A DNA stretch of 64,000 nucleotides from an uncultured bacterium (GCA_964419565.1 CAYQPW010000005.1:22297-86296), one strand, 5' to 3'. Positions 11,840-28,292 are shown, counted from the stretch's first letter. Translations and numbers: made by a program. The notes: generated from the letters alone by a model not told the origin.

Positions 11840-13699
11840 ATGGCAATTTTAAAAAGTATCAAAGGTCCTAAAGACCTCAAAGATCTAACCCTCGCGCAAC
11901 TACATGTACTCGCTCGGGAGATCAGAGAAGAAATAATAAATAGCTGTGCTCAAACCGGCGGTCATGTCGCGCCTTCACTTGGCGTAGTAGAATTGACCAT
12001 AGCATTATACCGGGCATTTGATGCGGATGTAGATAAGATCATCTGGGATGTGGGGCATCAGACTTATGCTCAGAAACTTATCACCGGTCGTTATCCGAAA
12101 TTCCACACGCTAAGAACATACAAAGGCATAAGTGGTTTTCCTAAACGGAAAGAATCTAAATATGATGTTTTCGATACCGGGCATTCATCAACTTCCTTGT
12201 CTGCTGCTACCGGCTTTGCACTGGCAAGGGATCTCAAAGGTGATAATTTCCAGATCATAAGTGTCATTGGTGACGGATCCTTGGGAGCTGGTATTGCTTT
12301 TGAAGCACTCAATCATTTGGGTCATTTAAAGAAGGATATTATCGTTATATTGAACGATAATGAACGTTCGATCGGCGATACGGTCGGTGCCTTGTCACAA
12401 TACCTGACAAGGGTTATTACAACGCGGACGTACAATCGTTTTCGCGACGACCTGTGGAAATTTCTTGGAAAATTCCCACCCTATACAAGAGACCGGAGCA
12501 GGAACCTTGCCAAGCTCCTACAAGAGGGATTAAAAGGTCTTTATGCACCCGCCGTGATCTTTGAAGAGCTTGGATTCAGATATATCGGACCGCTCAACGG
12601 GCACAAATTGGGAGAAATGATCGACACTTTTGAGCGCGTAAAAGAAATGAAAGGGCCAAGGATTATTCATGTTGTAACAAAGAAAGGCAAGGGCTTTGAA
12701 GCCGCGGAAAAATATCCTGAAGCATTTCACGGCATCGGTCCTTATTGCCCGCAAACCGGTAAAACGGAAAGCAAAGGACAATCATGGACATCAATATTCG
12801 GTGATACCGTGGTAGACCTTGCGAAGAAAAACAAGAAGATCGTTGCGATAACTGCCGGGATGTGTCTGGGTACTGGTTTAAAGAAATTTCGTGAAGAGAT
12901 CCCCGATCGTTTCTTTGATGTCGGTATTACCGAACAACATGCCATCACTATGGCCGCCGCCCTTGCCATTGAAGGATATATACCGATATGTGCGATCTAC
13001 TCGACATTTCTTCAACGAGCTTATGATCAGGTGATCCATGATGTGTGTCTGCAGGATGTACCTGTTATCTTTGCGGTTGACCGTGCTGGTCTGGTTGGTC
13101 AGGATGGTCCAACCCACCATGGTCCATTCGACCTTTCATATTTCAGATGTATACCTAATATGATCATCGGAGCACCAAAAGATGGCAGTGAATTGGTTGC
13201 GATGCTCAGAACCGCAGTGACTCAACGTGAACATCCGTTTGCAATACGTTATCCCCGAGGTGACTGTACGACGGTTGATGAAAATATCCCTCAGACTCTG
13301 CCCATCGGCAAATGGGAAGTTCTTAAAAAAGGCCGGGACATAGCAGTGATCGCGGTCGGCTCGATGGTCAAAGAAGCGCTTGGTGCCCAGGTGCTTTTAA
13401 AGAAAAAGTCGATCGATCCAATGATGATCAACGGGCGCTTTATCAAACCGCTCGACAATGAAATGCTACGGGAATTGCCAAATAGTGTTCATACGATAGT
13501 AACGGTCGAAGAAAATACGCTCAGTGGAGGTTTTGGCAGTGCGATTATGGAATACTATTCAAATACCAAAGCGCCAATAAAAGTTTACTGTATTGGCCTG
13601 CCGGATAATTTCATTGAGCATGGTGCCAGAGATATTCTTTTGGATCTGACCGGGCTCAATGCCAAGGGTATTGCCGATAAAATAGCTTCTTTTAAATGA
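11840..13699 (+). CDS. dxs: 1-deoxy-D-xylulose-5-phosphate synthase
   Basis: The N-terminus 'ILKSIKGPKDLKDL..GGHVAPSLGVVELTIALY..WDVGHQTYAQK' and the TPP-binding 'GDGSLGAG' are canonical DXS. The length is 619 aa. Confidence 0.92.
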   Translation: MAILKSIKGPKDLKDLTLAQLHVLAREIREEIINSCAQTGGHVAPSLGVVELTIALYRAFDADVDKIIWDVGHQTYAQKLITGRYPKFHTLRTYKGISGFPKRKESKYDVFDTGHSSTSLSAATGFALARDLKGDNFQIISVIGDGSLGAGIAFEALNHLGHLKKDIIVILNDNERSIGDTVGALSQYLTRVITTRTYNRFRDDLWKFLGKFPPYTRDRSRNLAKLLQEGLKGLYAPAVIFEELGFRYIGPLNGHKLGEMIDTFERVKEMKGPRIIHVVTKKGKGFEAAEKYPEAFHGIGPYCPQTGKTESKGQSWTSIFGDTVVDLAKKNKKIVAITAGMCLGTGLKKFREEIPDRFFDVGITEQHAITMAAALAIEGYIPICAIYSTFLQRAYDQVIHDVCLQDVPVIFAVDRAGLVGQDGPTHHGPFDLSYFRCIPNMIIGAPKDGSELVAMLRTAVTQREHPFAIRYPRGDCTTVDENIPQTLPIGKWEVLKKGRDIAVIAVGSMVKEALGAQVLLKKKSIDPMMINGRFIKPLDNEMLRELPNSVHTIVTVEENTLSGGFGSAIMEYYSNTKAPIKVYCIGLPDNFIEHGARDILLDLTGLNAKGIADKIASFK

Positions 13700-16600
13700 A
13701 TTTGATTCTTTCATTCATTTTATTTTCACAATTATCAACACCGTACGAAACACAGATCTTTCTCGATGCTGATGGGTCTTTTCTGGTCTATGCACGTTTT
13801 TACCAGGGTGAATTCATCGCTATCGATAGTATCGTAAGCGTTGATAAATACCTCGGTATCGGCCTTAAGGGGCACAATCGTGAAAGGCTGTTAGGTGAGC
13901 TTAAGAAGAGTCTTGTTCAACAGGGCGGTTATGCGAGTCAAGGTCTTTTTAGCACATTTGAGATACCTTTGCCAAAAGGCAGCTTCAGTGATTTTATGGG
14001 AGAAACCGGTAAGCTCGACGTCGGTGGTCATGTTAAGATCACAATCGGCGGCAGTGAGACCTTTATTTCTAACTTGCCTGAACAAAAGTTCTCCTGGCTC
14101 CCTGAGCTTGAAATGAAGCAAGAGATGTCGATAAAACTCGACGGTGAAGTCGGGGACCGGATGCGTGTTTTTATCGACCACAATTCAGAAAGGGTGAATG
14201 AGTCAGAGAATAAGATCACCGTGACATACCGGGGACATGAAGATGAGATCATTCAGGAGATCGAAGGTGGTGATACCCAGTTATCTATTCCTGCTACTAC
14301 ATATACTGGCGACATCCCTTCACACCGCGGTCTTTTTGGGATCAAATCTTCTGCCAAATTAGGGCCTTTAGACATCGTTGCGATCGCATCAAAAGAACGA
14401 ACCCAGACTCAGGAGATCGAGATCGAGGGATCAGCACAGGTCCAGTATGACACAACCTGGGCAAAGTATTTTGAACGCCGCCGGTTCTTTTTTCTAGGTA
14501 CACTTGATTCTATCGTTGAACTCAGAGTCTATCTTGATGATAATGATAACCAGAACGATAATCAGGGTATTACGTTCTTTGCCAATGCTTACCTCGACAT
14601 AAACGATGATAATATCCCGGACGATACAGTCATTCAAACGAATACCCAAAGCGGCTACTACACGCTAATGAGGGAGGGACTGAGTGATTTCTATTTGCGT
14701 GTCCCGCGTTCGAATATTATCGAATTAAACTATCAGCTGCCTGAGAATCAGGTGCTCGCGGTGTGGTATACAAAGATAAATGGCGCAGGACAGTATGACA
14801 CGGTCGGTATGATAACGGATTCTATACATAGTGATACGATGCAGCTTAAATTGATCTGTCCAGATGTCCTCGATACCCTGTCCTATACATGGAATTACGA
14901 GAAAAAGAATTATTACCAGATCGTATCACCGGGTTCTAAACTCGATTCGCTCCGGATATACTATATAACATCCGGTGGCGAACATCAAGATAACCAGGAT
15001 GGTGTATCTTATCTCCAGCTCCTCGGGCTTGACAATAACGGCGATAATCTGGTCGATGAAAACATTACTTTTTTCCAGGGTCGGGGTTTGCTTATTTTCC
15101 CGGACAGCATGCCCTTTGCCTCGAGTGCACTCGTTAATCCTGATCCTGAAATTTATACGGATCCATATATGACTGGACTCGGCGATTACTATTTATATAA
15201 AAAGACGGTTCAGGCAAAAGCTGTTTACACATTACCCGAGAATGTTGAAAAAGTAACCGTGTATATCGATGATATTGAGCAGGATTCGACGAGGGACTAT
15301 CATGTCGACTATGACGGCGGTGTCCTCGAGTTCAGAAAACCGATATTGCCGACGCAAAGGGTCAGGATCAAGGTTGAGTACTCGCCATTCTTTTCAGCTG
15401 CAGAAAAATCTCTTGTCGGAGTGCGCGGCACTTTGCGGCCTTTTGGTGAAGCCATGCTCGGTTCATCTTTCTTTTACCGCACTGAATCGTATCCCATGGA
15501 GCATGTCCGGCTAAAAGAAGAGCCGTTCAACAGGATGGTATGGGAGGCGGATTTATCCTACCCGCAGGAACTTCCGTTTGTTACCAGGGCGGTTGATTGG
15601 CTACCTTTTATTGAAACGGAAACCCCTTCGCGTTCGATCGTCAATGTTGAGGGCGCTTATTCGTTTTCTGACCTCAATGCCAAAGGTGAGGTCTTTCTCG
15701 ACGATCTTGAGTCATCAACCGTGCTCAGCAATGATTTTTCAGTTGCCAAAGTGTCCTGGTCCCTGTGTTCGAAACCGATCGAACAGGATACGGTAAATTA
15801 TGTCCAGAACCGGTTGATCTGGTATAATCTGCGCGACGATGAGGTTCTTCAGGCAGACGATATATATCAAGATCCAATAGATCCGAATGAAGCGGCTGAC
15901 GTTTTAAAGATGGTTTTTCATCCGGATCACGATGCATCATTTGGCGGTTTAACTCAATATATCTACAGTGAAGATTTTGACGATATCGAGAATCTAGAAT
16001 TGATAATCAAAGGCCGTGGTGGTATTATCCATGTTGATTTTGCGCAGGAAATAAGCGAAGATCAGCTCCGGCGTAATAAAAACGGTGAGCTTGTCGGTTA
16101 CCAGATTTTCGATGATGAAGACAGCGACAATAATAATGTATGGAATCAATTGAATGAAGATACTGGTCTTGATAATGTCTATGCGAGTGATAATGCTTAT
16201 GTCCCGGGTGCTGCTGATGACGGCAATGATGATTATGAGATCAATGATTATACTGGCGGCACCAATGGGACTGAAGGGAACAAGCTATGGGATACTGAAG
16301 ATCTGGATAGGGACGGCAATTTAAACACGAAAAACCGCTATTTCAGCTATTCAGTAGACCTTGATGATACAACTTCAGCGCGCTATGTAAATAATGCCGG
16401 GTTGATAAACGGCTGGAAGATGTTTCGTGTTTCGATCAAGGATTCAACCCAAAGAGATACGGTCACGGGGCAGCCTGACTGGCACGATATAAAATACGTC
16501 AGGATTTGGTTCAATGGTTTTAGCGAAACTGAGACCTTAATGATATATAAATTGAGTGCCACAGGCAGTCGTTGGAAGAATAAGGGCATTACTGGTGATT

Positions 16601-19101
16601 ATGCACCAAGAGATGAGGCCTTCAGCCTTAGACCGGTTAATACCAAGACTCATTCATACTACAGATCACCGTATGCTAATGAATATGATGAATTCGGGCA
16701 GGAAAAAACTGAGGGAGGCTTGGAATTCCTGCTGGAAAATATCGGCCATGACCGTACCTGCATTGCGCAGCGCAGAACTGACGAGAACGAAGACTACCGG
16801 GCATATGACACGCTGACCTTTTATATGAATGCGCACAATAGCAATCCTCTCTTGTCTATTCGAATAGGGAGTGACAGCTTGAACTATTATGAATACACAT
16901 GCCAGTATGATAATGGTGACCTGGGGTTGAATAATTATCGGCTTTTCAAAGTCACTATGCAGAACTTCATTGACCTCAAGCGTGATCGAGACCCGGACAT
17001 TGATACAGTTAGTGATTCGACCTACACCGTTGTAGGAAATCCTTCATTGTCACATAACCAGTTTTTTGAAGTCAGGATCACCAACCAGTATCTTACATTG
17101 CTTAACGATACGATCTGGTTCAATGATATCAAGCTTAAAGCACCGAAAACAGAGATCGGCAGGACATTTCGCGGTAATGGTTCGATCACTTTTGCCGACC
17201 TTGCCTCCTTGAATTTTTCGTACGATGAATCGAACGGACGTTTTAAAAGGCTGTCTGAGTCAAAAGATATATCAACGACAAGTGCGGGCAAAGGATACGC
17301 GGTAGGTGGCAATATATCAATGGATAAATTCTTGCCAACGGATTGGTACTTCAGAATTCCAGTCAGTATGAGTTACCGGAACACTATACTTGAGCCTCGA
17401 TTCTCTTACTTTTCTGATGATGTTGAACTCGAAGGTACTGATCGCGAAGAACAAGAGTCAAAGACTATAATGCGTGCATATACCGTGAGTATTTCCAAAT
17501 CGCAATCAAAGAACTGGTTCTTAAGATATACGCTTGACCGGCTTACCTTTGACCACACGCGAAACCAGACTCTGTCACGCGCGGTACTCAGTGCCGATAC
17601 TTCGGATAATATGACTTACCGGGGTTCCTATGCACTCGTTCCCAATTTGAGTTTCAAATTACTCAAGCAGAAATTCTTTCCGCTGCCGAAGAATATAAGC
17701 ATCAGTGCTTTGTATACAGACAACATGGTCAAGGCTTATCATCGCTCGAATCTTGATGATCCTTATGAACCAACTATCGGTGGTGCTCAGCACCGGAAAA
17801 CCTTGACACCGACAATATCAGTTGCATATGCACCTCATTCTATTATCAATGCGGATTATACATTTACCCAGAACCGCGATTCAGTTTTTGCCAGCAAGAG
17901 ATATGGTGAGGAAGTCGGTCGTACACAGAATTTCAATGCATCTATTTCTCCAAATCTCAAGATCGTTACGCCTCGTTTCTCATTCAATTCATCCTATAGC
18001 GAGGATCATCGTTTTGAAATACGGCAGGATCAGGATTTGCGCAATGTGTCGAATACCGGCGCTTATGGTGTTGATGGCGCGATCATGATCGGCACGATAA
18101 TAAGACTTTTTACTAGATTGAGGGATGAAACCAAAGATTCACTTTATGCTTCAGGTTCACCGGGTTGGATCGCCAGACAAGTCGAGAAATTAACCAACTA
18201 CATACAGAATGTGCAATTCAATTATCGCCGTCAGAGTAGTTCTGATTATCTCAATGTCAAGTCAAGACCGGTCATCGATTACCAGTGGGGGCTGGTGGAT
18301 TCAATCCCGCCTGAGGATGTTGCCCCGGGCAGTTTCCCGGGACGGGGTAATACAGATACTTATGGTCTGTCATCTGGTATGACTTATAAGTTTCTCAGTG
18401 CCAATGGCAGGTATAGTGGTACGATCAATCGAACATTTAATTATGGCGGAGGGCAAACTAGAACAGAGAATGTATCATACCCGGATCTGAATGTCCGCAT
18501 TCAGAAACTTGAATCCCTGCCTTTTCTGAAAAAATGGTGTCGTAATTCATCGATATCCGGGAATTTTGGTCAAACATATGAAAAACGTTATGATATAGCT
18601 GCGGATTCGTTGACTGGCGAATTGGTTTCAGACTCCAAAACCCTGAATTTGTCGCCTTTGGCAAGCTGGCAAGCAAACTGGATCAAAGGGATATCTACAA
18701 CTATTGAAGCAAATTACTCAGAGACAAATAGCAATGAATATGCAGGCGGCGCAACGCCTGTTCAGTCAAAAATGATAATGCGCGGCGGATCAGCAAGTTT
18801 TGGCTATACTTTCAGTGCCCCGGGCGGGATAAATTTACCGCTGCTTAAGGGCATAAGATTTTCTTCCAACCTTTCTATAAGTTTGAGTGTAAATTACAGC
18901 CGTACAACTAACTTTTTCACCGATCTTCTCGTACCCGCGACAAATACAAGCACCTTGAGTTCAAGCGTCGGATTGTCATACAACTTCTCTTCATCAGTGA
19001 CCGGCGGCGGGAATTTCGATTATTCCCAAAATGACGATATGAATAGTGATCAGAATACGCGAAGGGTTGGTTTGAACGCCTGGGTGAATATCAACTTTTA
19101 A
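13696..19101 (+). CDS. Giant (1801 aa) secreted outer-membrane beta-barrel-type protein. It is a candidate T9SS translocon (SprA/Sov-like)
   Basis: It has a signal peptide and a composition rich in D/N/S/T/Y. Alternating hydrophobic beta-strand patterns run throughout, and it ends in Phe ('..LNAWVNINF') like an OMP beta-signal. An acidic DxDxDG-like calcium-binding-type segment sits at ~aa 800-880. Its size, and a context of six T9SS cargo genes, suggest SprA. It is translationally coupled to dxs (ATGA). Confidence 0.4.
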   Translation: MNLILSFILFSQLSTPYETQIFLDADGSFLVYARFYQGEFIAIDSIVSVDKYLGIGLKGHNRERLLGELKKSLVQQGGYASQGLFSTFEIPLPKGSFSDFMGETGKLDVGGHVKITIGGSETFISNLPEQKFSWLPELEMKQEMSIKLDGEVGDRMRVFIDHNSERVNESENKITVTYRGHEDEIIQEIEGGDTQLSIPATTYTGDIPSHRGLFGIKSSAKLGPLDIVAIASKERTQTQEIEIEGSAQVQYDTTWAKYFERRRFFFLGTLDSIVELRVYLDDNDNQNDNQGITFFANAYLDINDDNIPDDTVIQTNTQSGYYTLMREGLSDFYLRVPRSNIIELNYQLPENQVLAVWYTKINGAGQYDTVGMITDSIHSDTMQLKLICPDVLDTLSYTWNYEKKNYYQIVSPGSKLDSLRIYYITSGGEHQDNQDGVSYLQLLGLDNNGDNLVDENITFFQGRGLLIFPDSMPFASSALVNPDPEIYTDPYMTGLGDYYLYKKTVQAKAVYTLPENVEKVTVYIDDIEQDSTRDYHVDYDGGVLEFRKPILPTQRVRIKVEYSPFFSAAEKSLVGVRGTLRPFGEAMLGSSFFYRTESYPMEHVRLKEEPFNRMVWEADLSYPQELPFVTRAVDWLPFIETETPSRSIVNVEGAYSFSDLNAKGEVFLDDLESSTVLSNDFSVAKVSWSLCSKPIEQDTVNYVQNRLIWYNLRDDEVLQADDIYQDPIDPNEAADVLKMVFHPDHDASFGGLTQYIYSEDFDDIENLELIIKGRGGIIHVDFAQEISEDQLRRNKNGELVGYQIFDDEDSDNNNVWNQLNEDTGLDNVYASDNAYVPGAADDGNDDYEINDYTGGTNGTEGNKLWDTEDLDRDGNLNTKNRYFSYSVDLDDTTSARYVNNAGLINGWKMFRVSIKDSTQRDTVTGQPDWHDIKYVRIWFNGFSETETLMIYKLSATGSRWKNKGITGDYAPRDEAFSLRPVNTKTHSYYRSPYANEYDEFGQEKTEGGLEFLLENIGHDRTCIAQRRTDENEDYRAYDTLTFYMNAHNSNPLLSIRIGSDSLNYYEYTCQYDNGDLGLNNYRLFKVTMQNFIDLKRDRDPDIDTVSDSTYTVVGNPSLSHNQFFEVRITNQYLTLLNDTIWFNDIKLKAPKTEIGRTFRGNGSITFADLASLNFSYDESNGRFKRLSESKDISTTSAGKGYAVGGNISMDKFLPTDWYFRIPVSMSYRNTILEPRFSYFSDDVELEGTDREEQESKTIMRAYTVSISKSQSKNWFLRYTLDRLTFDHTRNQTLSRAVLSADTSDNMTYRGSYALVPNLSFKLLKQKFFPLPKNISISALYTDNMVKAYHRSNLDDPYEPTIGGAQHRKTLTPTISVAYAPHSIINADYTFTQNRDSVFASKRYGEEVGRTQNFNASISPNLKIVTPRFSFNSSYSEDHRFEIRQDQDLRNVSNTGAYGVDGAIMIGTIIRLFTRLRDETKDSLYASGSPGWIARQVEKLTNYIQNVQFNYRRQSSSDYLNVKSRPVIDYQWGLVDSIPPEDVAPGSFPGRGNTDTYGLSSGMTYKFLSANGRYSGTINRTFNYGGGQTRTENVSYPDLNVRIQKLESLPFLKKWCRNSSISGNFGQTYEKRYDIAADSLTGELVSDSKTLNLSPLASWQANWIKGISTTIEANYSETNSNEYAGGATPVQSKMIMRGGSASFGYTFSAPGGINLPLLKGIRFSSNLSISLSVNYSRTTNFFTDLLVPATNTSTLSSSVGLSYNFSSSVTGGGNFDYSQNDDMNSDQNTRRVGLNAWVNINF

Positions 19102-20281: not shown

Positions 20282-22144
20282 ATGTTATTATTTATTTTCA
20301 TGCAGTTATTCAATATTGATCAGGTTACCCTTGATCATGCAATGGGTATTATGAGGCCTCTTTACAATGAGAAGATTGAGAATTCAGCATCCGTCTACTC
20401 TGGTGCTATTCCGATGTGGTGCTCTATGGACAGGACAAGATCCATGGATATGGATTTCCACCGTACAGATATCATCATCGGTGATACACCTGCCGAAACC
20501 CTGTCGATCAGTGGCTATTTCTATAATGAGGGCGATATAATCATCATCAATGATGGTGTACTCATCGTGCACAATGCTGATTTCAATCTTGCTGGTAACG
20601 TCATCATGGTTAATCGGGCTAAAGCAGTTATCGATTCAAGTATGTTGAATTTCATCCAGGCATATATCTATCATCGTATTATCTATGTCACTGATACTGC
20701 AGACCTATCGGTCAGTAATTCGACAACGAACTTTAGCGGTTATCCGTTCAGTGTCAGCGTGGCTGGTGCTGGTATGCTGACATTCAATGAGGTTGTCAAT
20801 GAAGATTGGATAACCGCTGGGGTAGCGCATAATGCTTCGGTTTATCTTGAAAATGTCGGTATTACCGGTGAATGGTTGTTTGCCGATGATTGCTACGCGA
20901 AATTCAAACATGTTGACGAGCTTCTCACCTGGTATTTTTGTGAAGATAATTCTGTCGTTGATATATCTTTTCCGGATGGAGATACAGTCTATGGGTTTTG
21001 TTTTGATTCAACGCTCAGCTATATAAGCGGTATAGGCTATCACGCCGAGATCGACAGCTCAACCGATTGTATGTGGGCGACAATACCTTTGAGAGGATGC
21101 GATGTGACTGTTCAGGATTCTGACCTGAGGGTTACTGGTCTTATGTTTGAGGGTGCAGATAGTTTTACGATTTACGGTCTGGTCAATGGTCTTTTTTATA
21201 ATGATTATACACTGCCCGTACAAGACAGGAATTACCATTTGATAAATACGTCAGTGCAGACATGGAATCTATATCCTGATGATACTTCATATGTCGATCT
21301 CTCGAATTCTATTTTCGGTGAACTGTGCGGATTTGGTAATAGCTATACTATTATTCAAAACGCTTTTTGTGATGGCACGGGCGGTCATATCGAGGCAACT
21401 TCACAAGCATTCGTTATAGTTTTTTTATCGAGTATTTTCGCTGATGTAATAACCAAGGAGCACGGCGTGTGTCTGCTTGGATACTGTTCTATGCCCTGGG
21501 GAAATATATGGGTCACGGGTTCTTCGATAATGGTTCTTATAAATACGCAGTTCCCCCAAGAACCGATACCATCTGATACAGCGATCGTTTTCGTTGCTGG
21601 AATCGCCGCTCCGAGTAATGCATATATTGACGATACGGTGGGCGTCATGGGCTCGGCTTGGATAGATAAGGGTCCTTATAATCCGCTGGACTTTGATTTT
21701 TACGAGCTTTACTTTCATGAACTCGGTGAATCAACATGGATTTTGATAGAAGACACACATTTTGTAGAGGTGCGTGATGATACGCTGGGTAATTGGAATA
21801 CCGCGGGCTTTACGCCTGGTACCTATGAGCTCAGACTCGTCCTTAAGAGCACTGCCGGCGACAGCATCGAGGCATTAAAACAGGTCAATCTAAGACCGAT
21901 GGGTGTCCTCGATGTCTTTTCTAGTGAACTCGACCTTGGTTTGATAACCGTGAAACAAGTTGCACCGCGTATTTTTTATATCACGAGTTTTGACTCAAAC
22001 CCTCAGATCTGCATTTATGATATTGTTGGGCGTGCGGTTCACGAAATAAAAACTTGCGAGTTATATTGGACTGCTCCAGCGAGCGGTATATATTTTGTGC
22101 GCGATAGTAAAACCGCTTATACTCAGAAAATTATCGCCTATTGA
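20282..22144 (+). CDS. T9SS-sorted secreted protein, probably a beta-helix fold, function unknown
   Basis: The C-terminus 'ICIYDIVGRAVHEIK..SGIYFVRDSKTAYTQKIIAY' looks like a T9SS C-terminal sorting domain. An SD-like GGGGGAG lies upstream of the ATG. Confidence 0.6.
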   Translation: MLLFIFMQLFNIDQVTLDHAMGIMRPLYNEKIENSASVYSGAIPMWCSMDRTRSMDMDFHRTDIIIGDTPAETLSISGYFYNEGDIIIINDGVLIVHNADFNLAGNVIMVNRAKAVIDSSMLNFIQAYIYHRIIYVTDTADLSVSNSTTNFSGYPFSVSVAGAGMLTFNEVVNEDWITAGVAHNASVYLENVGITGEWLFADDCYAKFKHVDELLTWYFCEDNSVVDISFPDGDTVYGFCFDSTLSYISGIGYHAEIDSSTDCMWATIPLRGCDVTVQDSDLRVTGLMFEGADSFTIYGLVNGLFYNDYTLPVQDRNYHLINTSVQTWNLYPDDTSYVDLSNSIFGELCGFGNSYTIIQNAFCDGTGGHIEATSQAFVIVFLSSIFADVITKEHGVCLLGYCSMPWGNIWVTGSSIMVLINTQFPQEPIPSDTAIVFVAGIAAPSNAYIDDTVGVMGSAWIDKGPYNPLDFDFYELYFHELGESTWILIEDTHFVEVRDDTLGNWNTAGFTPGTYELRLVLKSTAGDSIEALKQVNLRPMGVLDVFSSELDLGLITVKQVAPRIFYITSFDSNPQICIYDIVGRAVHEIKTCELYWTAPASGIYFVRDSKTAYTQKIIAY

Positions 22145-22196: not shown

Positions 22197-22238
22197 TTGA
22201 CTTATATAGAAATTTATGTAGAATAAATTGAAAGGAGG
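22197..22238 (+). promoter_or_regulatory. Promoter-like TTGACT-16-TAGAAT plus GGAGG RBS ahead of the 22244 ORF, marking the start of the Cys-repeat/rSAM operon
   Basis: I read 'TTGACTtatatagaaatttatgTAGAATaaattgaaaGGAGGtatgcATG' directly. Confidence 0.4.
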
Positions 22239-22243
22239 TATGC

Positions 22244-22633
22244 ATGAACTTACCTTATGGCGAAATCAAGGATAAAATCCTGCAAATTAAATTTTCCACA
22301 GCAGATTTTTCGATCGCTGCGGTGCTCAGTGCAGTCAAAGTCCACCTTGATGTAATCGAGGAGATGGGAGTTATTTTTCTTGGTGCTCAAACTGATATCG
22401 TTGCTGGTCCTACTCCGGTATTTCAGCCGGTTCCGGTCATTGCCCAGTTCGAATATACGGGAAAAGGAGCGAGCAAAGATATCCTTGAGAAAGTGTACAG
22501 GATTGTGTGGCAGGGGATCGTGAGTTCATTCCCTGATGAGACGAAATGGTCAGAAGCAAAAGAGGCATATGCTTCATTTATCGCAGCACAGGCTGACCTG
22601 CTGAGAGCACGTATCGAAGCATCTAAAGAATGA
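22244..22633 (+). CDS. Hypothetical 129-aa protein. It is the first gene of the putative operon with the Cys/His-repeat protein and rSAM/SPASM
   Basis: It has its own promoter-like TTGACT-16-TAGAAT and a strong GGAGG RBS 6 nt before the ATG. The protein contains no Cys. Confidence 0.5.
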   Translation: MNLPYGEIKDKILQIKFSTADFSIAAVLSAVKVHLDVIEEMGVIFLGAQTDIVAGPTPVFQPVPVIAQFEYTGKGASKDILEKVYRIVWQGIVSSFPDETKWSEAKEAYASFIAAQADLLRARIEASKE

Positions 22634-22690
22634 TATTTAATGACGCTAAATGATAAATGTCAAGGAATTCTACGATTATATCACTAAATT

Positions 22691-24199
22691 ATGATGTGTA
22701 GTTTTCTTATACTAACACTGCTGTCATTATCAGCTGACCTTCGCTGGGTAGAGGTTGATGTCTCGTTGTGGCAAGATGGTCGGGCAGATTTTGTATATAA
22801 AGTCCGCTGGCATGTCCCTTCTGGGACCATGAGTGGGTTCTATTTTCAGGAACAAACGGTCGTTCCTTATTTTGATTTTGATGATGCCTATGCGATCGAT
22901 GAATCTGGTACGAGGTACCCTCTTGAGATAAAAGATCTCGGCAATCAATACGATATAATCCTTGCCCGGGGAAAGAGGTTTGGTCCGGGCGAGATAACAT
23001 ATATTTTCCATTATGGCGGCGATCTTGGCCAAAGCGGTAATCTCGCTAAAACGGCGAGTGAATTCGGTGATCTTGTTGTCTTCCATTGGGCACCGACTCA
23101 ATGGGATGAGCCGCTTGAACACTATACGGTCTATGTCTACTATCCGATAACGGTCCCGGGTGAAGATGTTGACCCTGATGATTACGGATTTCGGACTGAA
23201 AAGTTCATGAATGAGAATTATTTGCTTTCATACTTTGGTCAGCCATACAAGGGCGAAACCTTTTTTACGGTTCGTATACATAAAAATAATGTAGACACCA
23301 AAGAGAAAATACTCATTCAGCAGTACGTGCCAGCTGAGTATTTTGAAACCGAAAAGTTCGGCACCATTGAGATCATACCAGAAAGTCAAAAGAGATTTTC
23401 TTTTCCCTTTGAAGTACTCTGGATGATACTGTATGTCGTCCCTTATATATTCTTCAATAACAAGAAAGCAAAGCGCATAAAGGGAGCATACAGTGATGTT
23501 GCCAGTCTCAAATGGCTGCGCGACGACTGGGTACCACCAAAGCTCGAAGTGGCTACTTTCCGTAAATCTGGTAAGGTCGCTAAACTCGATCTCATTGAGG
23601 CCGCTTTATTGCTAGATTATCCAGTCAACAAAGTGCTGACCATATTAGCATATAAACTGCAGGATAATGGTCTGCTCGATATCACATCACGTCAGCCCAT
23701 GAAGATAAAGATTCTCAAGAGACCGACTGGATTGCGGTATTATGAAACAGGTTTTCTTGATGCCGTGAAATCCGACGGGACATTAGATGAAGCGGGTCTC
23801 AAAGCATTGATAACTCAGGTCGTCGAAAAGATATCTGCCAAATCCTGGGATTGTGACATAAAGGCGACAAAACTCTATTATGAAGAGAAAATAGGAAGTC
23901 CTTCTCCAGATATCGATCCAGAATACAATAAATCTGAATATTATGATTATCTGTCAGGACGCTCGTTTGCCAGACAGGGATATTTTAATGAAACAGAATC
24001 CGCTTTTGTCGTGTATGGGGCACCGATTAAAAGTTATTCTGCATTCGTGGCTTCTGATGCCTGTCACAGTGCTTGTTATGTACATACTGCCTGCCATGAC
24101 GCTTGTCATTCGGCATGCCATTCAGCCTGTCACTCGGCATGCCATTCAGCCTGCCACTCGGCGTGCCATTCAGCCTGCGTGAGCGGAGGAGCGCATTAA
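22691..24199 (+). CDS. Bitopic membrane protein (DUF2207-like layout) ending in a periodic (A-C-H-S)n Cys/His-repeat tail
   Basis: It has an N-terminal signal/anchor and a central TM ('FEVLWMILYVVPYIFF'). The C-terminus is 'DACHSACYVHTACHDACHSACHSACHSACHSACHSACHSACVSGGAH'. The N-terminal domain 'VDVSLWQDGRADFVYKVRWHVPSG..GFYF' resembles the DUF2207 start. Confidence 0.7.
   Translation: MMCSFLILTLLSLSADLRWVEVDVSLWQDGRADFVYKVRWHVPSGTMSGFYFQEQTVVPYFDFDDAYAIDESGTRYPLEIKDLGNQYDIILARGKRFGPGEITYIFHYGGDLGQSGNLAKTASEFGDLVVFHWAPTQWDEPLEHYTVYVYYPITVPGEDVDPDDYGFRTEKFMNENYLLSYFGQPYKGETFFTVRIHKNNVDTKEKILIQQYVPAEYFETEKFGTIEIIPESQKRFSFPFEVLWMILYVVPYIFFNNKKAKRIKGAYSDVASLKWLRDDWVPPKLEVATFRKSGKVAKLDLIEAALLLDYPVNKVLTILAYKLQDNGLLDITSRQPMKIKILKRPTGLRYYETGFLDAVKSDGTLDEAGLKALITQVVEKISAKSWDCDIKATKLYYEEKIGSPSPDIDPEYNKSEYYDYLSGRSFARQGYFNETESAFVVYGAPIKSYSAFVASDACHSACYVHTACHDACHSACHSACHSACHSACHSACHSACVSGGAH
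24101..24178 (+). repeat. In-frame 24-nt tandem DNA repeat (about 3 units, 'gcatgccattcagcctgtcactcg') encoding (ACHS)2 per unit
   Basis: There are three consecutive near-identical 24-mers at 24113-24184. Confidence 0.8.
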
Positions 24200-25560
24200 T
24201 GACATTCGAGATTTCAGATTCAGGATTTAAGAATTCCAAAGGAAATATTATCGAAGACGAACGACGATTTACGGATACGAGTTTTAATATCACCTGGGTC
24301 GATGAGTTTGTTGAAAAAATTAAGCCTTATGTCTTTGTGCGTGAGTTCGATAAGCTTTTGATCTTAATACCTAACCAGGCATATAAACTCAATGATGCTG
24401 GTGTTAGCACGCTTGATTTTCTGTTTAAGGGTCATTCGATCGAGGAGTTTCTAAATATTGTTGGTGATAATTCAGAGAAAAGAGAACAGCTGCATTATTT
24501 CTTCTGTGATCTCAGGGCAGCAGTGAACGGCTGCTTACGTGAGGACGAAAACCGTCAAGCTGTGTCTTATTATGAATTCAGCGGCGCATTTACAGAATAT
24601 CCGGTACTATCGGAGATCGCGGTCACTTATCGATGTAATTTAAAATGCGATTTCTGCTATGTTGGCGATCGTGATTATAATGAACTCAAGACGAGCGATA
24701 TGAAAAAGCTGCTCTTTAAGATATTAAAAGAAGCAAGGGTACCTTCAGTCAGTTTTACCGGAGGTGAACCACTGCTGCGTCAGGATATCGGTTTCCTCGT
24801 TGAATATGCACATGATCTCGGTCTCTGGACTAACCTCATTACCAATGGTACGCTTCTGGATATTGATAAAGTAACCGAGTTGAAAACCAGCGGTCTTTCG
24901 AGTGCTCAGGTCAGTATCGAAGGGCCAGACCCTAATATACACGACAGGATAACCGGGGTTACTGGATCATTCAACGCGACCGTTAAAGGAATTAAATCGT
25001 TACAAAAAGCAGGTATCCCGGTGCATACCAATACGACAGTTTCGCGAAACAACATCGATGAACTCATAGATATTCTCTTATTGATCAAAAGTATCGGTTT
25101 GAATCGCCTGTCAATGAACCTGCTCATCCCGTGCGGTGCCGCACGCCATAGAGAGGATATCTGGGTTTCATATTCAGAGATCGGCGATCATATACTAAAA
25201 GTAAAGCGGCGCGCTGACCAGGAGGGAATAAAATTCCTGTGGTATTCTCCCATACCGATGTGCAAATTCAACCCGGTCGCTTATGGATTTGGCAATAAAT
25301 CTTGTGCCGCGATCACTGGATTGTTGAGTCTCGATCCGATGGGGAATATCATACCATGCTCATCATGGCGAAAGCCTGTGGCATCACTTTTGAAAAGGAG
25401 ATTCCAGGACATATGGCAGTCTTCGGTATTGAGTTTTTTCAAGAATATCGAGTATGCTCCGGACGAGTGCCATGAATGCCTTGAGTTTGATATCTGCAAA
25501 GGAGCATGTCCTCTGTATTGGGCGGCTCAGGGTAAAGAGGAGCTCGATGACCGAACATAA
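24199..25560 (+). CDS. Radical SAM/SPASM-domain peptide-modifying enzyme with an N-terminal PqqD-like RRE domain
   Basis: 'AVTYRCNLKCDFCYVG' is the CxxxCxxC motif, and 'SFTGGEPLL' is present. The C-terminal SPASM cysteines are 'CAAITG..CSSW..CHEC..CKGAC'. The N-terminal ~140 aa '..LLILIPNQAYKLNDAGVSTLDFL.KGHSIEEFLNIV' fits the PqqD/RRE pattern. The start overlaps the upstream stop as TAATG, with GGAGG 8 nt upstream. Confidence 0.8.
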   Translation: MTFEISDSGFKNSKGNIIEDERRFTDTSFNITWVDEFVEKIKPYVFVREFDKLLILIPNQAYKLNDAGVSTLDFLFKGHSIEEFLNIVGDNSEKREQLHYFFCDLRAAVNGCLREDENRQAVSYYEFSGAFTEYPVLSEIAVTYRCNLKCDFCYVGDRDYNELKTSDMKKLLFKILKEARVPSVSFTGGEPLLRQDIGFLVEYAHDLGLWTNLITNGTLLDIDKVTELKTSGLSSAQVSIEGPDPNIHDRITGVTGSFNATVKGIKSLQKAGIPVHTNTTVSRNNIDELIDILLLIKSIGLNRLSMNLLIPCGAARHREDIWVSYSEIGDHILKVKRRADQEGIKFLWYSPIPMCKFNPVAYGFGNKSCAAITGLLSLDPMGNIIPCSSWRKPVASLLKRRFQDIWQSSVLSFFKNIEYAPDECHECLEFDICKGACPLYWAAQGKEELDDRT

Positions 25561-26461
25561 GTCATATCTTGTCTTCAATGAGATAAGTCCCAAATTACGG
25601 ACCCTGGTATCGGTTTTTTTGATCGGCGTCGGTTTTTTATTACAGCTTACCACGAGAAATATACTCGCTGGAATGCCTTTTATTGTCGGCTGTCTGGTCA
25701 TAAATCTTTTGAGAGGCATCTCAGTCAAGCAGGTCAGCGCGAAAAAATTGACTTGGCAAGAAGTGACCCCGGCAAAGATCGACCAGGTTCTCCAACAGTG
25801 TAAGCGCATAAAGAAGTTTCGCAGCAACGATGCCGGTTGTCTTATCGGTGTCATTGTCTTGCTCATCTTTGGGTTTTCCTTTGGTATACCGCTGATCGCA
25901 CTGGTCGTACGTTTAAATTTCGCATTTGTGGCAGCCGTCGTGAATGCGATAATACTCTTTGGAGGTCTGGCTTTTAGCGGACGCAGGAGTGCCTGGATGC
26001 CCAAAGCTTTGGATATCAAAACGGAAATAGTGAAACGTATGATCGGGTCAGCGATCATTAAAAAGTACCCCAAAACTCAGGTCATTCCATACCTTGAGGT
26101 TGGTGAAAGTGGCGAGGGTTCATTTCCTAATGATGCACGACTTATGGTCAGGTTCAGGGATGCACCAAAGGATTTCATCGGACTGCAGGGACAGATATCA
26201 ATAAACTCAGTTAAAGGCCGTCCATATCCTTATTTCTATGTTGTTCTTATTGCCAAACACTCATTCGATATTCTGAAAAAATTCGGCAAGCAGTCATTTG
26301 AAAAACTTGTCGTGGAACGTAAAGAGACGAGCGAGGTTGATGTGATCGTCATTAGACAGCGCACCACAAAAACCTCGGGTTACCATACTGATACCGCGGT
26401 TCAGGATTATACGCTGGATACCGGTTTAAAAGCCGTTAAGAATTTGCTGGAAGAATCCTGA
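25546..26461 (+). CDS. Membrane protein (4-5 TM at the N-terminus plus a C-terminal soluble domain), function unknown, in the rSAM locus
   Basis: There are hydrophobic helices 'LVSVFLIGVGFLL', 'MPFIVGCLVINLL' and 'LIGVIVLLIFGFSFGIPLIALVV'. The start 'MTEHKSY' overlaps the rSAM stop. Confidence 0.5.
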
Positions 26462-26480: not shown

Positions 26481-28292
26481 TTGAAAGCTAAAGGCAAAGT
26501 TAAAGCAAAGAAAAAAACCAATATTATCCTGCCATTAGCCATAATTATATCATTAGTGTTTCTAGCATTTCTTCCTTCTTTACAAAACGGTTTTACAAAT
26601 TGGGATGACAATGTCCTGGTGACTGAGAATATGATGATCCGGGGATTATCATGGCACAATATCGGGCATTATTTTACATCCTATTATATCTCGACCTATA
26701 TTCCTTTGACTCTTTTGTCTTTTGCCCTTGAATACCAAGTAGCAGATCTCGATCCGCGTCTTTATCACATTACGAATCTTGCTATTCATATCATTAACTG
26801 CCTGCTTGTCTTTTGTCTTATACTCCTGCTAACCAAAAATACCTGGCTATCACTGATAACCGCGTTATTATTTGGGCTCCATCCTTTGCGTGTTGAATCC
26901 GTTGCCTGGGTTACCGAACGCAAAGATGTTCTTTTTGCTTTATTCTTCTTGAGCACCTTGATATTTTATTTACTTTACCAGAAGACCGCAAGAGTGAGAC
27001 ATTATTTTATTTCAATTCTCATGTTTATCCTCTCGGCTCTATCAAAAGGCATGGCGGTTACGCTGCCTTTTGTGATCCTGCTGTTCGATTATTATCTGAA
27101 GCGCCGGTTCGATAAAAAACTGTTCCTTGAAAAAATACCTTATTTTCTGATCGCCATTTTTTTTGCTCTGCTTGCTGTATTCGCTCAATTTCCGTCTATT
27201 GCGCGCCGGGTCGAGCCTTTAGTCGTTTTCCCCAGTACGCTTTTCATTGCCTGTCGTAATATCTGGTTTTATCTGCTCAAACTCTTGCTGCCCGTTAAAT
27301 TATCGGCTCTTTATCCATACCCGGATCTGTCTGGCAGTACCCTGCCTATAATATTCTATCTTTCTCCACTCATCGTCATCGTTCTGATAATACTCGCTAC
27401 TTATGGGAATGAGCGCTCCAGAAAGGTTTTTTTAGGCACCGCTTTTTTCTTATTCAATATAGTGACGGTCATCGGGATCATACCTCTTGCCGGTGATGCC
27501 ATCGCTGCAGACCGTTACACCTATATACCATCGATAGGGATATGTTTTCTTGTTGCGGCGGGTTTTTATTATCTCTATGAAAAGAAAAATATCGGCTTGA
27601 AATTCTATAAACCTGTTTTATTAGCGATATTGATCGCGGTACTGGGTATTTTTTCTATTTTGACATGGCAAAGATGCAAAGTGTGGAAAAACGACATGAC
27701 CTTATGGAAAGATGCTCTGAGTAAATATCCCAGTCCAGTGGCATTTAATAACCGGGGTCTTGTTTATTATGAAAAAAAACAATATGAAAAAGCGATAAGA
27801 GATTTTAATAGCGCTCTTGCTATGGATACTGAATATTCGACTGCTTATTACAATCGCGCAAATGTTTACGATGCGGAAGCAGATTATCAAAAGGCCTTAG
27901 CTGATTATAGCCGGGCTATTGAATTGGATCCTAAGGCGGCTAAAGCCTATAATAACCGGGGTCTGACGTATGGCCGTATGGGCAAACATCAAAAAGCAAT
28001 AGACGATTTCACTCAAGCAGTGCGCATCGATCCGACCTATGCGCTGGCTTTGAATAATCGGGGTATGATCTATGGTCGGCTTAAACAACATAAACAGGCG
28101 ATCGCTGATTTTACACAGGCGCTTCGTATCGATCCTGACTATGCAAAAAGTTATTATAACCGGGCGCTCGCATACTATTCTTTGGGTGATTATAAAAGGG
28201 CTTTACAAGATGCCGTTAAATCGGAGACACTCGGTTATGAAGTTAACCCCGGTTTTATGCAAAGACTCCAAAATGCGGTGGATAATCAATAG
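26481..28292 (+). CDS. TMTC-like membrane glycosyltransferase (PMT/GT39-like, DUF1736-type) fused to C-terminal TPR repeats
   Basis: It has about 10 N-terminal TM helices, then 6 or more TPR units ('AYYNRANVYD..AKAYNNRGLTYG..ALALNNRGMIYG..AKSYYNRALAYY'). Confidence 0.6.
   Translation: MKAKGKVKAKKKTNIILPLAIIISLVFLAFLPSLQNGFTNWDDNVLVTENMMIRGLSWHNIGHYFTSYYISTYIPLTLLSFALEYQVADLDPRLYHITNLAIHIINCLLVFCLILLLTKNTWLSLITALLFGLHPLRVESVAWVTERKDVLFALFFLSTLIFYLLYQKTARVRHYFISILMFILSALSKGMAVTLPFVILLFDYYLKRRFDKKLFLEKIPYFLIAIFFALLAVFAQFPSIARRVEPLVVFPSTLFIACRNIWFYLLKLLLPVKLSALYPYPDLSGSTLPIIFYLSPLIVIVLIILATYGNERSRKVFLGTAFFLFNIVTVIGIIPLAGDAIAADRYTYIPSIGICFLVAAGFYYLYEKKNIGLKFYKPVLLAILIAVLGIFSILTWQRCKVWKNDMTLWKDALSKYPSPVAFNNRGLVYYEKKQYEKAIRDFNSALAMDTEYSTAYYNRANVYDAEADYQKALADYSRAIELDPKAAKAYNNRGLTYGRMGKHQKAIDDFTQAVRIDPTYALALNNRGMIYGRLKQHKQAIADFTQALRIDPDYAKSYYNRALAYYSLGDYKRALQDAVKSETLGYEVNPGFMQRLQNAVDNQ

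What the first reader, a model, noticed from the sequence alone, without database searches (positions are those of the whole stretch)
22197..26461. Candidate new system: an RRE-containing rSAM/SPASM maturase coupled to a 502-aa membrane protein with an (ACHS)n Cys/His tail
- **What the sequence shows.** A promoter and strong RBS are followed by ORF 22244 (129 aa, no Cys), then ORF 22691 (a bitopic membrane protein whose last ~50 aa carry 10 Cys at exact 4-residue spacing, each followed by His). Next, overlapping as TAATG, is a radical SAM enzyme. Its N-terminal ~140 aa fit the PqqD-like RiPP recognition element, and its C-terminus has the SPASM cysteines. A further membrane protein follows.
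- **Established background.** RRE+rSAM/SPASM enzymes such as PqqE, MftC, sacti/ranthipeptide synthases, QhpD and GRRM act on Cys-rich or repeat peptides encoded next to them.
- **Inference.** The best substrate candidate here is not a small precursor peptide but the cytoplasm-facing Cys/His-repeat tail of a large, DUF2207-like membrane protein. This is comparable to QhpD, which acts on a protein subunit. It also parallels GRRM, which modifies Gly-rich repeats, given that DUF2207 tails are Gly-rich. On an alpha-helix, i,i+4 Cys plus i+1 His would form a continuous metal-binding or thioether-ladder stripe.
Basis: partly seen in the sequence, partly recalled or inferred. Interest (0 to 1): 0.88.

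Follow-up and report, generated by a model that had tools for sequence, protein, structure and literature searches.

The report
Membrane protein tail with dedicated maturase
A radical SAM enzyme with a peptide-recognition domain is almost always encoded right after a membrane protein ending in a conserved (Ala-Cys-His-Ser)n tail, across many bacterial phyla and Asgard archaea, which points to an undescribed enzymatic modification of a membrane protein's tail.

Summary
**Observation:** real. Window 22244-26461 holds four coupled genes: a 129-aa protein, a 502-aa single-pass membrane protein ending in (A-C-H-S/D)n-ACVSGGAH, a 453-aa radical SAM/SPASM enzyme (TAATG overlap), and a 304-aa membrane protein (true start 25547).

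**Coupling:** strongly supported in both directions.
- A DNA pattern for the tail found at least 120 genomes, covering about two dozen phylum-level labels plus Thorarchaeota/Promethearchaeota. About 105 carry a close homolog of this rSAM, nearly always directly downstream.
- 80 metagenome loci were picked with rSAM-specific peptides. All 76 with upstream DNA have the tail ORF ending just upstream.

**Tail selection:** synonymous codon differences outnumber nonsynonymous ones 12.5:1.

**Enzyme domains:** the N-domain is a PqqD-like recognition element at family level (33 of 39 members hit PF05402; the profile hits TfuB1 and PqqD). The window copy alone does not hit. The rSAM has CxxxCxxC plus seven conserved SPASM cysteines.

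**Novelty:** no NCBIfam model claims any component, and I found no literature.

**Best reading:** a dedicated maturase modifies the cytoplasmic Cys/His tail, most likely through Cys-directed crosslinks. The chemistry and the biological role are inferred, not shown. I rate it a new variant of RRE-dependent rSAM/SPASM maturation, with a membrane protein as substrate.

The parts
22197..22238 (+). Promoter-like hexamers (TTGACT-16-TAGAAT, 22197-22224) and Shine-Dalgarno AAGGAGG (22232-22238) ahead of the first gene
   Evidence: This is a consensus match only. The number of promoter-like matches in the region is not above the shuffles.
22244..22633 (+). 129-aa soluble Cys-free protein, an accessory gene of the cassette in some lineages
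   Evidence: Homologs sit directly upstream of the tail-protein gene in 12 of 120 loci (WOR-3-like bacteria, Aminicenantes, Thorarchaeota/Promethearchaeota) and in L140. Pfam gave only sub-threshold matches, and NCBIfam and PDB sequence searches gave none.
22691..24199 (+). 502-aa single-pass membrane protein: signal-like N-terminus, extracytoplasmic beta-sandwich (residues 14-214), TM (about 236-258), cytosolic alpha/beta domain (residues 301-401), Cys/His tail
24053..24196 (+). C-terminal tail, residues 455-502: SDACHSACYVHTACHD(ACHS)6ACVSGGAH; candidate substrate
   Evidence: In 193 unique tails with 1518 C-x-x-x-C units, position 2 is His in 94%, position 3 is Ser in 78% or Asp in 15%, and position 4 is Ala in 95%. 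The median is 8 units. Codon differences are 12.5:1 synonymous to nonsynonymous. The window DNA has a 24-nt period repeated 3.1 times.
24199..25560 (+). 453-aa radical SAM/SPASM enzyme. PqqD-like RRE at residues about 26-140 (24274-24618), rSAM core at residues 142-295 with C146/C150/C153, SPASM region with C355, C369, C387, C424, C427, C433, C437 (25261-25509)
   Evidence: No NCBIfam model reaches its cut-off; the best is AhbD at 151 bits against 500. The closest solved chains are SkfB (E=3.8e-19) and PqqE (3e-17).
25547..26461 (+). 304-aa membrane protein: four TM helices plus a cytosolic beta-rich C-terminal domain; third core gene of the 'type A' cassette

Best explanation
This is a conserved two-to-four-gene cassette. 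A cytoplasmic radical SAM/SPASM enzyme is the dedicated maturase of the protein encoded just upstream.

**Proposed mechanism, step by step.**
1. The substrate protein is inserted with its beta-sandwich domain outside the cell and its C-terminal half in the cytoplasm. This is shown by topology prediction.
2. The enzyme's N-terminal PqqD-like recognition element docks on the segment just before the tail, of the type aromatic-x-x-F-h-x-S. This step is inferred.
3. The rSAM/SPASM core then works along the (A-C-H-S/D)n repeats and modifies the cysteines. The most likely product is a series of intramolecular Cys-derived crosslinks (sactionine- or ranthionine-type thioethers), one per 4-residue unit. 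The result would be a rigid, His-decorated ladder that stays attached to the membrane protein. The chemistry is inferred only.
4. The downstream 304-aa membrane protein (replaced by other accessory proteins in other lineages) and the 129-aa protein probably hold or present the tail. This is a weak inference.

The biological role of the mature protein is unknown. A membrane-tethered metal- or redox-active element is the most natural guess.

The confidence of 0.65 refers to the claim that the enzyme covalently modifies the tail. For thioethers specifically it is about 0.35.
For: **Shown.**
- Forward synteny: 105 of 120 tail-bearing loci carry an rSAM homolog (89 by a strict same-strand, immediately-downstream criterion). 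Most of the rest lack downstream DNA.
- Reverse synteny: 76 of 76 informative loci chosen by rSAM peptides alone have the tail ORF directly upstream. Two complete WOR-3 genomes show the same cassette.
- The pairing holds from bacteria to Thorarchaeota even when gene order changes; there the rSAM is divergent and upstream.
- The tail protein is the only partner present in all cassette types.
- The tail is the best conserved part of an otherwise 21-45% identical family and is under strong purifying selection.
- The enzyme has a family-level RRE, which is a peptide-binding domain, and a full 7-Cys SPASM.
- The tail is on the cytoplasmic side and the enzyme has no signal peptide or TM segment.
- The genes are translationally coupled (TAATG).

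**Background.** QhpD makes Cys-Asp/Glu thioethers in the protein QhpC (PMC7876137). The closest solved relative by sequence is the thioether-forming SkfB.
Against: - No product was observed, so the chemistry is pure inference.
- NCBIfam scores are as high for tetrapyrrole enzymes (AhbD 151 bits, NirJ2 138) as for peptide maturases (PqqE 123, WgkB 118, StsB 98, PapB 80). Sequence therefore does not point to thioether chemistry.
- The window's own N-domain does not hit PqqD on its own.
- A few tail proteins have no adjacent rSAM (L029, L066, L085, L122, L041). L029 is a second copy in a MAG whose other copy (L039) does have one.
- The tail model has pLDDT below 50.
Confidence: 0.65

Rival explanations
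1. The tail is a metal- or Fe-S-binding motif that is not covalently modified. The rSAM docks on it (for cluster or electron supply, regulation or membrane localisation) but acts on another substrate such as a lipid, a small molecule or another protein.
For: - Cys-His pairs at a 4-residue period are plausible metal ligands.
- The best NCBIfam scores are to non-peptide SPASM enzymes AhbD and NirJ2.
- The membrane context and membrane accessory proteins fit.
- Some tail proteins lack an adjacent rSAM.
Against: - The enzyme carries a PqqD-like RRE, which in known systems binds the substrate peptide.
- No biosynthetic genes for a small molecule are conserved in the cassette.
- The tail protein is the only universal partner.
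Confidence: 0.15
2. The membrane protein is a very large RiPP precursor. After modification the tail is cleaved off and released as a peptide, for example a metallophore.
For: - The core-at-C-terminus layout resembles a leader-core precursor.
- In Thorarchaeota a roughly 408-aa protein with an HEYEHH (HExxH-like) motif follows the tail gene.
Against: - No protease or exporter is conserved in type A or type B cassettes.
- The tail is cytoplasmic and tethered to a folded, conserved 450-residue membrane protein.
- The neighbourhoods are housekeeping genes.
Confidence: 0.08
3. The tail is modified on cysteine by a different rSAM chemistry than thioether crosslinking. Candidates are thiooxazole formation (as reported for SbtM), formylglycine formation (anSME-type), or His-centred C-C or C-S crosslinks. 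This is a sub-case of the best explanation with a different product.
For: - rSAM/SPASM enzymes are reported to make thiooxazoles from Cys (the SbtMa peptide is mentioned in PMC12538549; NCBIfam TIGR04082 is named accordingly).
- His is 94% conserved next to every Cys, which plain thioether formation does not obviously need.
Against: - There is no closer similarity to SbtM or anSME than to other SPASM enzymes: 81 and 85 bits for L068, against cut-offs of 350 and 349.
- anSMEs lack an RRE; this point rests on my own knowledge.
Confidence: 0.25
4. Adjacency without a functional link: a simple-sequence repeat that happens to sit next to a housekeeping rSAM.
For: - The window's tail DNA is a 24-nt tandem repeat.
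- Similar 12-nt repeats occur as junk in viral contigs.
Against: - 76 of 76 and about 105 of 120 co-occurrence across distant phyla and archaea.
- A 12.5:1 synonymous to nonsynonymous ratio, with Ser encoded by both TCN and AGY codons.
- The junk repeats lack the ACVSGG end and the protein context.
Confidence: 0.01

Closest known systems
QhpD / QhpC (quinohemoprotein amine dehydrogenase maturation)
   Same: An rSAM/SPASM enzyme, encoded in the same operon as its substrate, modifies cysteines of a protein that stays functional as a protein rather than becoming a secreted peptide. It installs several Cys thioethers in sequence (PMC7876137).
   Different: - QhpC is a small (about 15 kDa) soluble subunit with an N-terminal 28-residue leader that is cleaved before export.
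- Here the candidate substrate is the extreme C-terminal tail of a 500-aa membrane protein.
- There are no qhp partner genes, and the repeat has a strict 4-residue period with His.
Sactipeptide / ranthipeptide maturases (SkfB, CteB, PapB, SCIFF maturases)
   Same: The architecture is RRE + rSAM + 7-Cys SPASM. The substrates are Cys-rich and often repetitive. SkfB is the best solved-structure hit (E=3.8e-19) and CteB also matches.
   Different: - All curated models score far below their cut-offs: StsB 98 against 625, PapB 80 against 340.
- Those systems use short leader-core peptides and usually have export or protease genes.
- Here the substrate is not a small peptide and there is no export machinery.
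ACGX-repeat system (NCBIfam TIGR04340 rSAM; the repeat peptide is recalled from memory)
   Same: An rSAM/SPASM enzyme paired with a substrate made of 4-residue repeats that begin Ala-Cys.
   Different: - TIGR04340 scores 75.9 bits against a cut-off of 400.
- The tail protein hits no NCBIfam model.
- ACGX substrates are small peptides (from memory), with Gly where this tail has His.
DUF2207-family membrane proteins with Gly-rich C-terminal tails
   Same: The layout is the same: signal peptide, extracytoplasmic beta-sandwich (DUF2207 N-domain), TM, cytosolic region, low-complexity C-terminal tail. L068 ends ...ACHSACVSGGGGSSGGGGASGGW, bridging the two tail types.
   Different: - Ordinary DUF2207 proteins have no Cys/His repeat and, as far as I know, no rSAM partner.
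- The window protein is below the DUF2207 gathering score.
- Their function is also unknown; the only study found is a stress and biofilm phenotype in S. mutans (PMC10457818).
Bufferins / thiooxazole RiPPs (MNIO enzymes; SbtM rSAM)
   Same: Cysteines in a ribosomal product are enzymatically converted into metal-binding groups, and the systems are widely conserved outside classical antibiotic clusters.
   Different: - Bufferins are exported and are made by oxygen-dependent MNIO enzymes.
- This system is cytoplasmic, rSAM-based and tethered to the membrane.
- No evidence for thiooxazole was obtained here.

Membership tests
Radical SAM superfamily (PF04055) | Pfam hit above the gathering score and a CxxxCxxC cluster motif | tested here: met
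   PF04055 scores 99 bits against 29.5. C146-x3-C150-x2-C153 is 100% conserved in 87 homologs.
SPASM subfamily (PF13186 / 7-Cys motif) | C-terminal SPASM domain with the Cys set for two auxiliary clusters | tested here: met
   PF13186 scores 23.8 bits against 21.5. C355, C369, C387, C424, C427, C433 and C437 are 97-99% conserved, including CxxCx5CxxxC.
PqqD-like RiPP recognition element (PF05402) | The window sequence itself matches the PqqD model | tested here: not met
   The window N-domain (residues 26-140) gives no PqqD hit at E<=1 (part A) and none in the full-length scan.
PqqD-like RiPP recognition element (PF05402) | The homologous domain family matches PqqD / solved RREs | tested here: met
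   33 of 39 aligned N-domains hit PF05402, best E=1.9e-10. The profile hits TfuB1 6jx3_B (E=4e-4), PqqD 3g2b (0.011), TbiB1 5v1u (0.039) and PqqCD 5sxy (0.073). The fold itself was not modelled.
DUF2207 (PF09972 N-terminal domain) | Pfam hit above the gathering score | tested here: inconclusive
   The window scores 18.3 bits (E=0.003) against 24.4. Homolog P0013 scores 26.8 bits. PF09972 is precomputed on 4 homologs. The fold is a beta-sandwich like OST1 and M1 aminopeptidase N-domains.
Named NCBIfam rSAM/SPASM maturase families (PqqE, MftC, StsB, PapB, WgkB, HxsC, ACGX, GeoRSP, ScmE/F, GDL-trio) and AhbD/NirJ | Score at or above the curated cut-off of the model | tested here: not met
   The best is AhbD at 151 bits against 500. 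PqqE scores 123 against 381, MftC 104 against 265, PapB 80 against 340 and ACGX 76 against 400. The result is the same for six other cassette rSAMs from distant phyla.
Sacti-/ranthipeptide systems | Short precursor peptide (leader + core) encoded beside the maturase | tested here: not met
   Gaps in the cassette are 99, 57, -1 and -14 nt. In about 180 loci the tail ORF ends directly before the rSAM with no intervening conserved gene. The Cys-rich sequence is the end of a 450-700-aa membrane protein.
Sacti-/ranthipeptide systems | Product contains Cys S-to-C(alpha/beta/gamma) thioethers | not testable with these tools
   This needs mass spectrometry or NMR of the modified tail.
QhpD/QhpC system | qhp operon context (qhpABC, protease QhpE, QhpG) and an N-terminal leader on a small gamma-subunit | tested here: not met
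   The neighbours are a 129-aa orphan, a 304-aa membrane protein and unrelated genes. The candidate substrate is a C-terminal tail. The family description is from PMC7876137.

The most novel reading that the evidence does not exclude
The rSAM turns the (ACHS)n tail into a new kind of protein-derived, membrane-tethered cofactor. This would be a crosslinked Cys/His ladder, or a chain of Cys-derived heterocycles, that binds a row of metal ions or relays electrons on the cytoplasmic face of the membrane. It would be an ancient module shared by about two dozen bacterial phylum-level lineages and Asgard archaea, giving a first functional handle on the large DUF2207-type family of tail-bearing membrane proteins.
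Probability: 0.2. Interest if true: 0.9.

Novelty: new variant of a known kind. Interest (0 to 1): 0.78.

Why it matters
- **A missed substrate class.** RRE-dependent rSAM/SPASM enzymes are mined almost only next to short peptides. Here the same machinery is locked onto the tail of a large membrane protein, a substrate class that peptide-centred mining misses.
- **Breadth.** The pairing is near-obligate, under strong selection, and spread from WOR-3, Spirochaetota, Chloroflexota, Planctomycetota, Myxococcota and Desulfobacterota to Thorarchaeota. It is likely a housekeeping modification in anaerobes rather than an antibiotic.
- **Testability.** The system is small (two genes suffice for a test), has a very regular substrate, and occurs in at least one cultured strain, Desulfobulbus alkaliphilus DSM 24258. 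The chemistry is therefore directly testable.
- **Wider payoff.** It could shed light on the unexplained low-complexity tails of DUF2207-type proteins.

Tried and rejected
- **Viral-contig scan for (CHxA)3C.** It gave 19 hits, all simple 12-nt tandem repeats without the ACVS end or the protein context, so it was dropped. It taught me to add the ACVS anchor to the pattern.
- **The search for related loci with broad alignments A1 and A2.** I replaced them with a DNA pattern and a narrower rSAM alignment, A4.
- **NCBIfam and Pfam on the tail protein, the 129-aa protein and the 304-aa protein.** No model reached its cut-off. PF27846, precomputed on some homologs, is not in the local Pfam copy, so I could not identify it.
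- **The 129-aa protein.** Its profile against PDB sequences gave no hit.
- **Literature.** No paper holds the repeat strings as a protein motif, DUF2207 together with radical SAM, or 'ACGX'. A DUF2207/5-thiohistidine paper (PMC12631010) looked promising for Cys-His chemistry, but its authors conclude the DUF2207 gene is unrelated.
- **Unavailable resource.** The afdb50 fold library was not on the machine.
- **Rejected idea: the rSAM is a WOR-3 housekeeping enzyme only by chance next to the tail gene.** I raised this because one search gave far more rSAM hits than one search gave tail-protein hits. Searches rejected it.
- **Apparent exception L132.** The tail gene has no rSAM there because a 100-N scaffold gap follows it.

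Full report
**1. What is in the window**

- On the + strand, 22244-26461 carries four tightly packed genes:
  - ORF 22244-22633: 129 aa, no Cys.
  - ORF 22691-24199: 502 aa.
  - ORF 24199-25560: 453 aa.
- The 502-aa gene's stop and the next ATG overlap as TAATG.
- A database protein identical over all 453 aa (P0096) supports the start at 24199.
- An identical 304-aa protein (P0216), together with the 14-nt overlap seen in a complete WOR-3 genome (L140), places the fourth gene's start at 25547.
- Gaps within the cassette are 99, 57, -1 and -14 nt, so there is no room for a separate small precursor gene.
- A promoter-like TTGACT-16-TAGAAT (22197-22224) and AAGGAGG precede the first ATG. This is only a consensus match.
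- The closest genome loci are candidate division WOR-3 MAGs (L120, L106), so the window is most likely from that group.

**2. The tail**

- The 502-aa protein ends SDACHSACYVHTACHD(ACHS)6ACVSGGAH.
- It has 10 Cys at residues 458-496. Spacing is 4 in eight of nine intervals. Eight of the ten Cys are followed by His.
- The degenerate DNA pattern matches six times in the window against 0.00 expected.
- The DNA has a 24-nt period repeated 3.1 times.

**3. The membrane protein**

- AF2 (58-sequence alignment, mean pLDDT 83.6) gives:
  - a signal-like N-terminal helix;
  - a confident beta-sandwich at residues 14-214;
  - one TM helix followed by NNKKAKRIK;
  - a confident cytosolic alpha/beta domain at residues 301-401;
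  - a low-confidence tail (pLDDT below 50).
- A hydropathy scan finds a single TM segment at 236-255.
- Homologs have classical signal peptides, so the tail is cytoplasmic.
- The DUF2207 N-domain model scores 18.3 bits in the window, below the cut-off of 24.4. It scores 26.8 bits in homolog P0013.
- L068 ends ...ACHSACVSGGGGSSGGGGASGGW, a hybrid with the Gly-rich tails typical of DUF2207 proteins.

**4. The enzyme**

- Radical_SAM PF04055 scores 99 bits. SPASM PF13186 scores 23.8 bits against a cut-off of 21.5.
- In 87 homologs, C146/C150/C153 and seven SPASM cysteines (355, 369, 387, 424, 427, 433, 437) are at least 97% conserved.
  - Alone, the window copy hits no PqqD model.
  - Of 39 aligned N-domains from cassettes in many phyla, 33 hit PqqD PF05402 (best E=1.9e-10).
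  - Their profile finds the solved recognition elements TfuB1 (E=4e-4), PqqD (0.011), TbiB1 (0.039) and PqqCD (0.073) ahead of noise.
  - I take the RRE as established at family level. The fold was not modelled.
- No NCBIfam model reaches its cut-off for this enzyme or for six distant cassette homologs. The best is AhbD at 130-161 bits against 500, and peptide maturases score similarly low.
- The closest solved chains are SkfB (3.8e-19), PqqE (3e-17), SuiB and CteB.

**5. Is the pairing real? Forward test**

- The first homology search showed that nearly all relatives of the membrane protein end in the same tail, from WOR-3 to Promethearchaeota.
- By record titles these cover:
  - Chloroflexota, Spirochaetota, Planctomycetota, Myxococcota;
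  - Acidobacteriota/Aminicenantes, Omnitrophota;
  - Verrucomicrobiota/Kiritimatiellae/Lentisphaerae;
  - Hydrogenedentota, Sumerlaeota, Abditibacteriota, Armatimonadota, Gemmatimonadota, Nitrospirota;
  - Desulfobacterota, including the cultured Desulfobulbus alkaliphilus DSM 24258;
  - Gammaproteobacteria, Bacillota, Elusimicrobiota, Riflebacteria, WOR-3;
  - Thorarchaeota and Promethearchaeota.
- These are MAG labels that I did not verify.
- In 115 loci the tail belongs to a homolog of the 502-aa protein. The other five loci hold only a truncated fragment of the tail ORF.
- 105 loci hold a homolog of the window's rSAM, mostly at E<=1e-90.
  - In 89 loci it lies on the same strand directly after the tail gene by a strict criterion.
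  - Most of the others are long-ORF artefacts of the same arrangement.
  - In Thorarchaeota the rSAM is divergent and upstream.
- Of the 15 loci without an rSAM, most lack the relevant flank or have a scaffold gap (L132).
- The true exceptions are L029, L066, L085, L122 and L041. L029 is a second copy in a MAG whose other copy (L039) has the rSAM.

**6. Reverse test**

- One search returned far more rSAM homologs than one search returned tail proteins, so I checked whether the enzyme also occurs without the tail.
- Two complete WOR-3 genomes show the same cassette.
- A metagenome scan seeded only with rSAM peptides ([LY]PVLSEIA[VL], [VI]PSVS[FW]TGG) returned 80 loci at 44-83% identity.
- All 76 with upstream DNA have an ORF ending in (ACHx)n-ACVSGG directly upstream. 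Four have no upstream DNA.

**7. Selection on the tail**

- In 193 unique tails with 1518 C-x-x-x-C units, position 2 is His in 94%, position 3 is Ser in 78% or Asp in 15%, and position 4 is Ala in 95%. The median is 8 units, with a range of 2-11.
- I compared the last five units of 68 unique tails from the rSAM-seeded set, whose ascertainment is independent of the tail.
  - 39% of codon comparisons are identical, 56.6% differ synonymously and 4.5% differ nonsynonymously.
  - Ser is encoded by both TCN and AGY codons.
- The repeat is therefore kept at the protein level and is not a DNA curiosity.
- By contrast, the rest of the protein is 21-45% identical across the family.

**8. Accessory genes**

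- A homolog of the 304-aa membrane protein follows the rSAM in at least 56 loci (type A).
- In Chloroflexota and Myxococcota, a roughly 400-aa coiled-coil/zinc-ribbon protein and a roughly 170-aa membrane protein take its place (type B). Their tails carry ACVHD variants and end in CVS[SKR]F.
- In Thorarchaeota, the 129-aa homolog precedes the tail gene and a roughly 408-aa protein with an HEYEHH motif follows it (type C).
- Only the tail protein and the rSAM are universal.
- The 129-aa protein has no detectable relatives of known function.

**9. Mechanism**

- Shown:
  - a peptide-recognition domain fused to a full rSAM/SPASM enzyme;
  - near-obligate, translationally coupled pairing with a protein whose only strongly conserved segment is a cytoplasmic Cys/His repeat;
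  - no alternative peptide substrate in the cassette.
- Inferred:
  - the RRE docks on the pre-tail segment, which has clade-specific motifs such as YSxF[VI]xSD or FxxFRTS;
  - the catalytic core modifies the cysteines unit by unit.
- I favour thioether crosslinks. The characterised RRE + 7-Cys-SPASM enzymes acting on Cys-rich repeats do this, and QhpD does it on a protein (PMC7876137).
- Sequence similarity does not discriminate between chemistries. The near-invariant His suggests something more specific, such as metal binding, a His-involving crosslink, or a heterocycle like the thiooxazole reported for the rSAM SbtM.
- My confidence that the enzyme covalently modifies the tail is about 0.65. 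My confidence in thioethers specifically is about 0.35.

**10. Comparison with known systems, and novelty**

- It works like the QhpD/QhpC and sacti-/ranthipeptide systems but is a member of none. All curated models fail their cut-offs, there is no short precursor, and there is no qhp context.
- No NCBIfam model (release of June 2026) covers any of the four proteins.
- Full-text searches for the repeat strings, for DUF2207 with radical SAM, and for related terms found nothing on it.
- The library does not hold subscription-only papers. The Pfam entry PF27846, precomputed on some homologs, could not be inspected. An existing description therefore cannot be fully excluded.
- I rate it a new variant of a known kind: RRE-dependent rSAM/SPASM maturation applied to the tail of a membrane protein.

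Noticed in passing
L068:4703-6214 (Candidatus Vecturithrix MAG JAXGYF010000001): This tail protein ends ...ACHSACHSACVSGGGGSSGGGGASGGW. It is a hybrid of the Cys/His repeat and the Gly-rich tail typical of DUF2207-type proteins, which suggests the two tail types are evolutionarily linked.
   Followed up: partly
L022, L115, L121, L130, L102 (Thorarchaeota / Promethearchaeota loci): The archaeal version has a different order: the rSAM is divergent and upstream, then the 129-aa homolog, the tail protein (about 710-730 aa) and a roughly 408-aa protein with an HEYEHH (HExxH-like) motif. The tails contain ACVSHD and VCHS variants.
   Followed up: partly
L020, L025, L027, L043, L083, L131, L134 and others (Chloroflexota, Myxococcota): In these cassettes the 304-aa membrane protein is replaced by a roughly 400-aa coiled-coil protein with CxxC zinc-ribbon motifs and a roughly 170-aa membrane protein with a C-terminal zinc ribbon. 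The tails have ACVHD interruptions and end in CVS[SKR]F or CAGSF.
   Followed up: partly
L029 and L039 (same Myxococcales MAG, CAMKRB01): There are two tail-protein paralogs in one genome. L039 has the rSAM downstream. L029 is followed directly by a 327-aa membrane-protein ORF that occupies the position of the 304-aa gene (not detected as its homolog), with no rSAM. L066 (Bradymonadales) has the same rSAM-less layout, followed by a weak homolog of the 304-aa protein.
   Followed up: partly
window 26481-28292: A 603-aa protein lies 20 nt downstream of the cassette. It has a multi-TM N-terminal half and five C-terminal TPR repeats. A PMT_2-type protein also lies near the cassette in L140, but it is not a conserved neighbour.
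   Followed up: partly
window 20282-22144 and 13696-19101: A 620-aa protein with no Pfam or NCBIfam hit lies just upstream; it has a near-identical homolog in WOR-3 MAG L120. Further upstream is a 1801-aa ORF. Neither was examined further.
   Followed up: no
window 23943-24182: The alternative reading frame of the repeat DNA gives a 79-aa ORF ending in HAIQP-type repeats. This is a by-product of the tandem repeat and not a gene candidate.
   Followed up: no
L001-L019 (viral contigs): The (CHxA)3C DNA pattern hits 19 viral contigs, all simple 12-nt tandem repeats in short or open ORFs. Three contigs (L001-L003) share an identical SACNSACNSACHSACHS... peptide-like ORF of 65-94 aa.
   Followed up: partly
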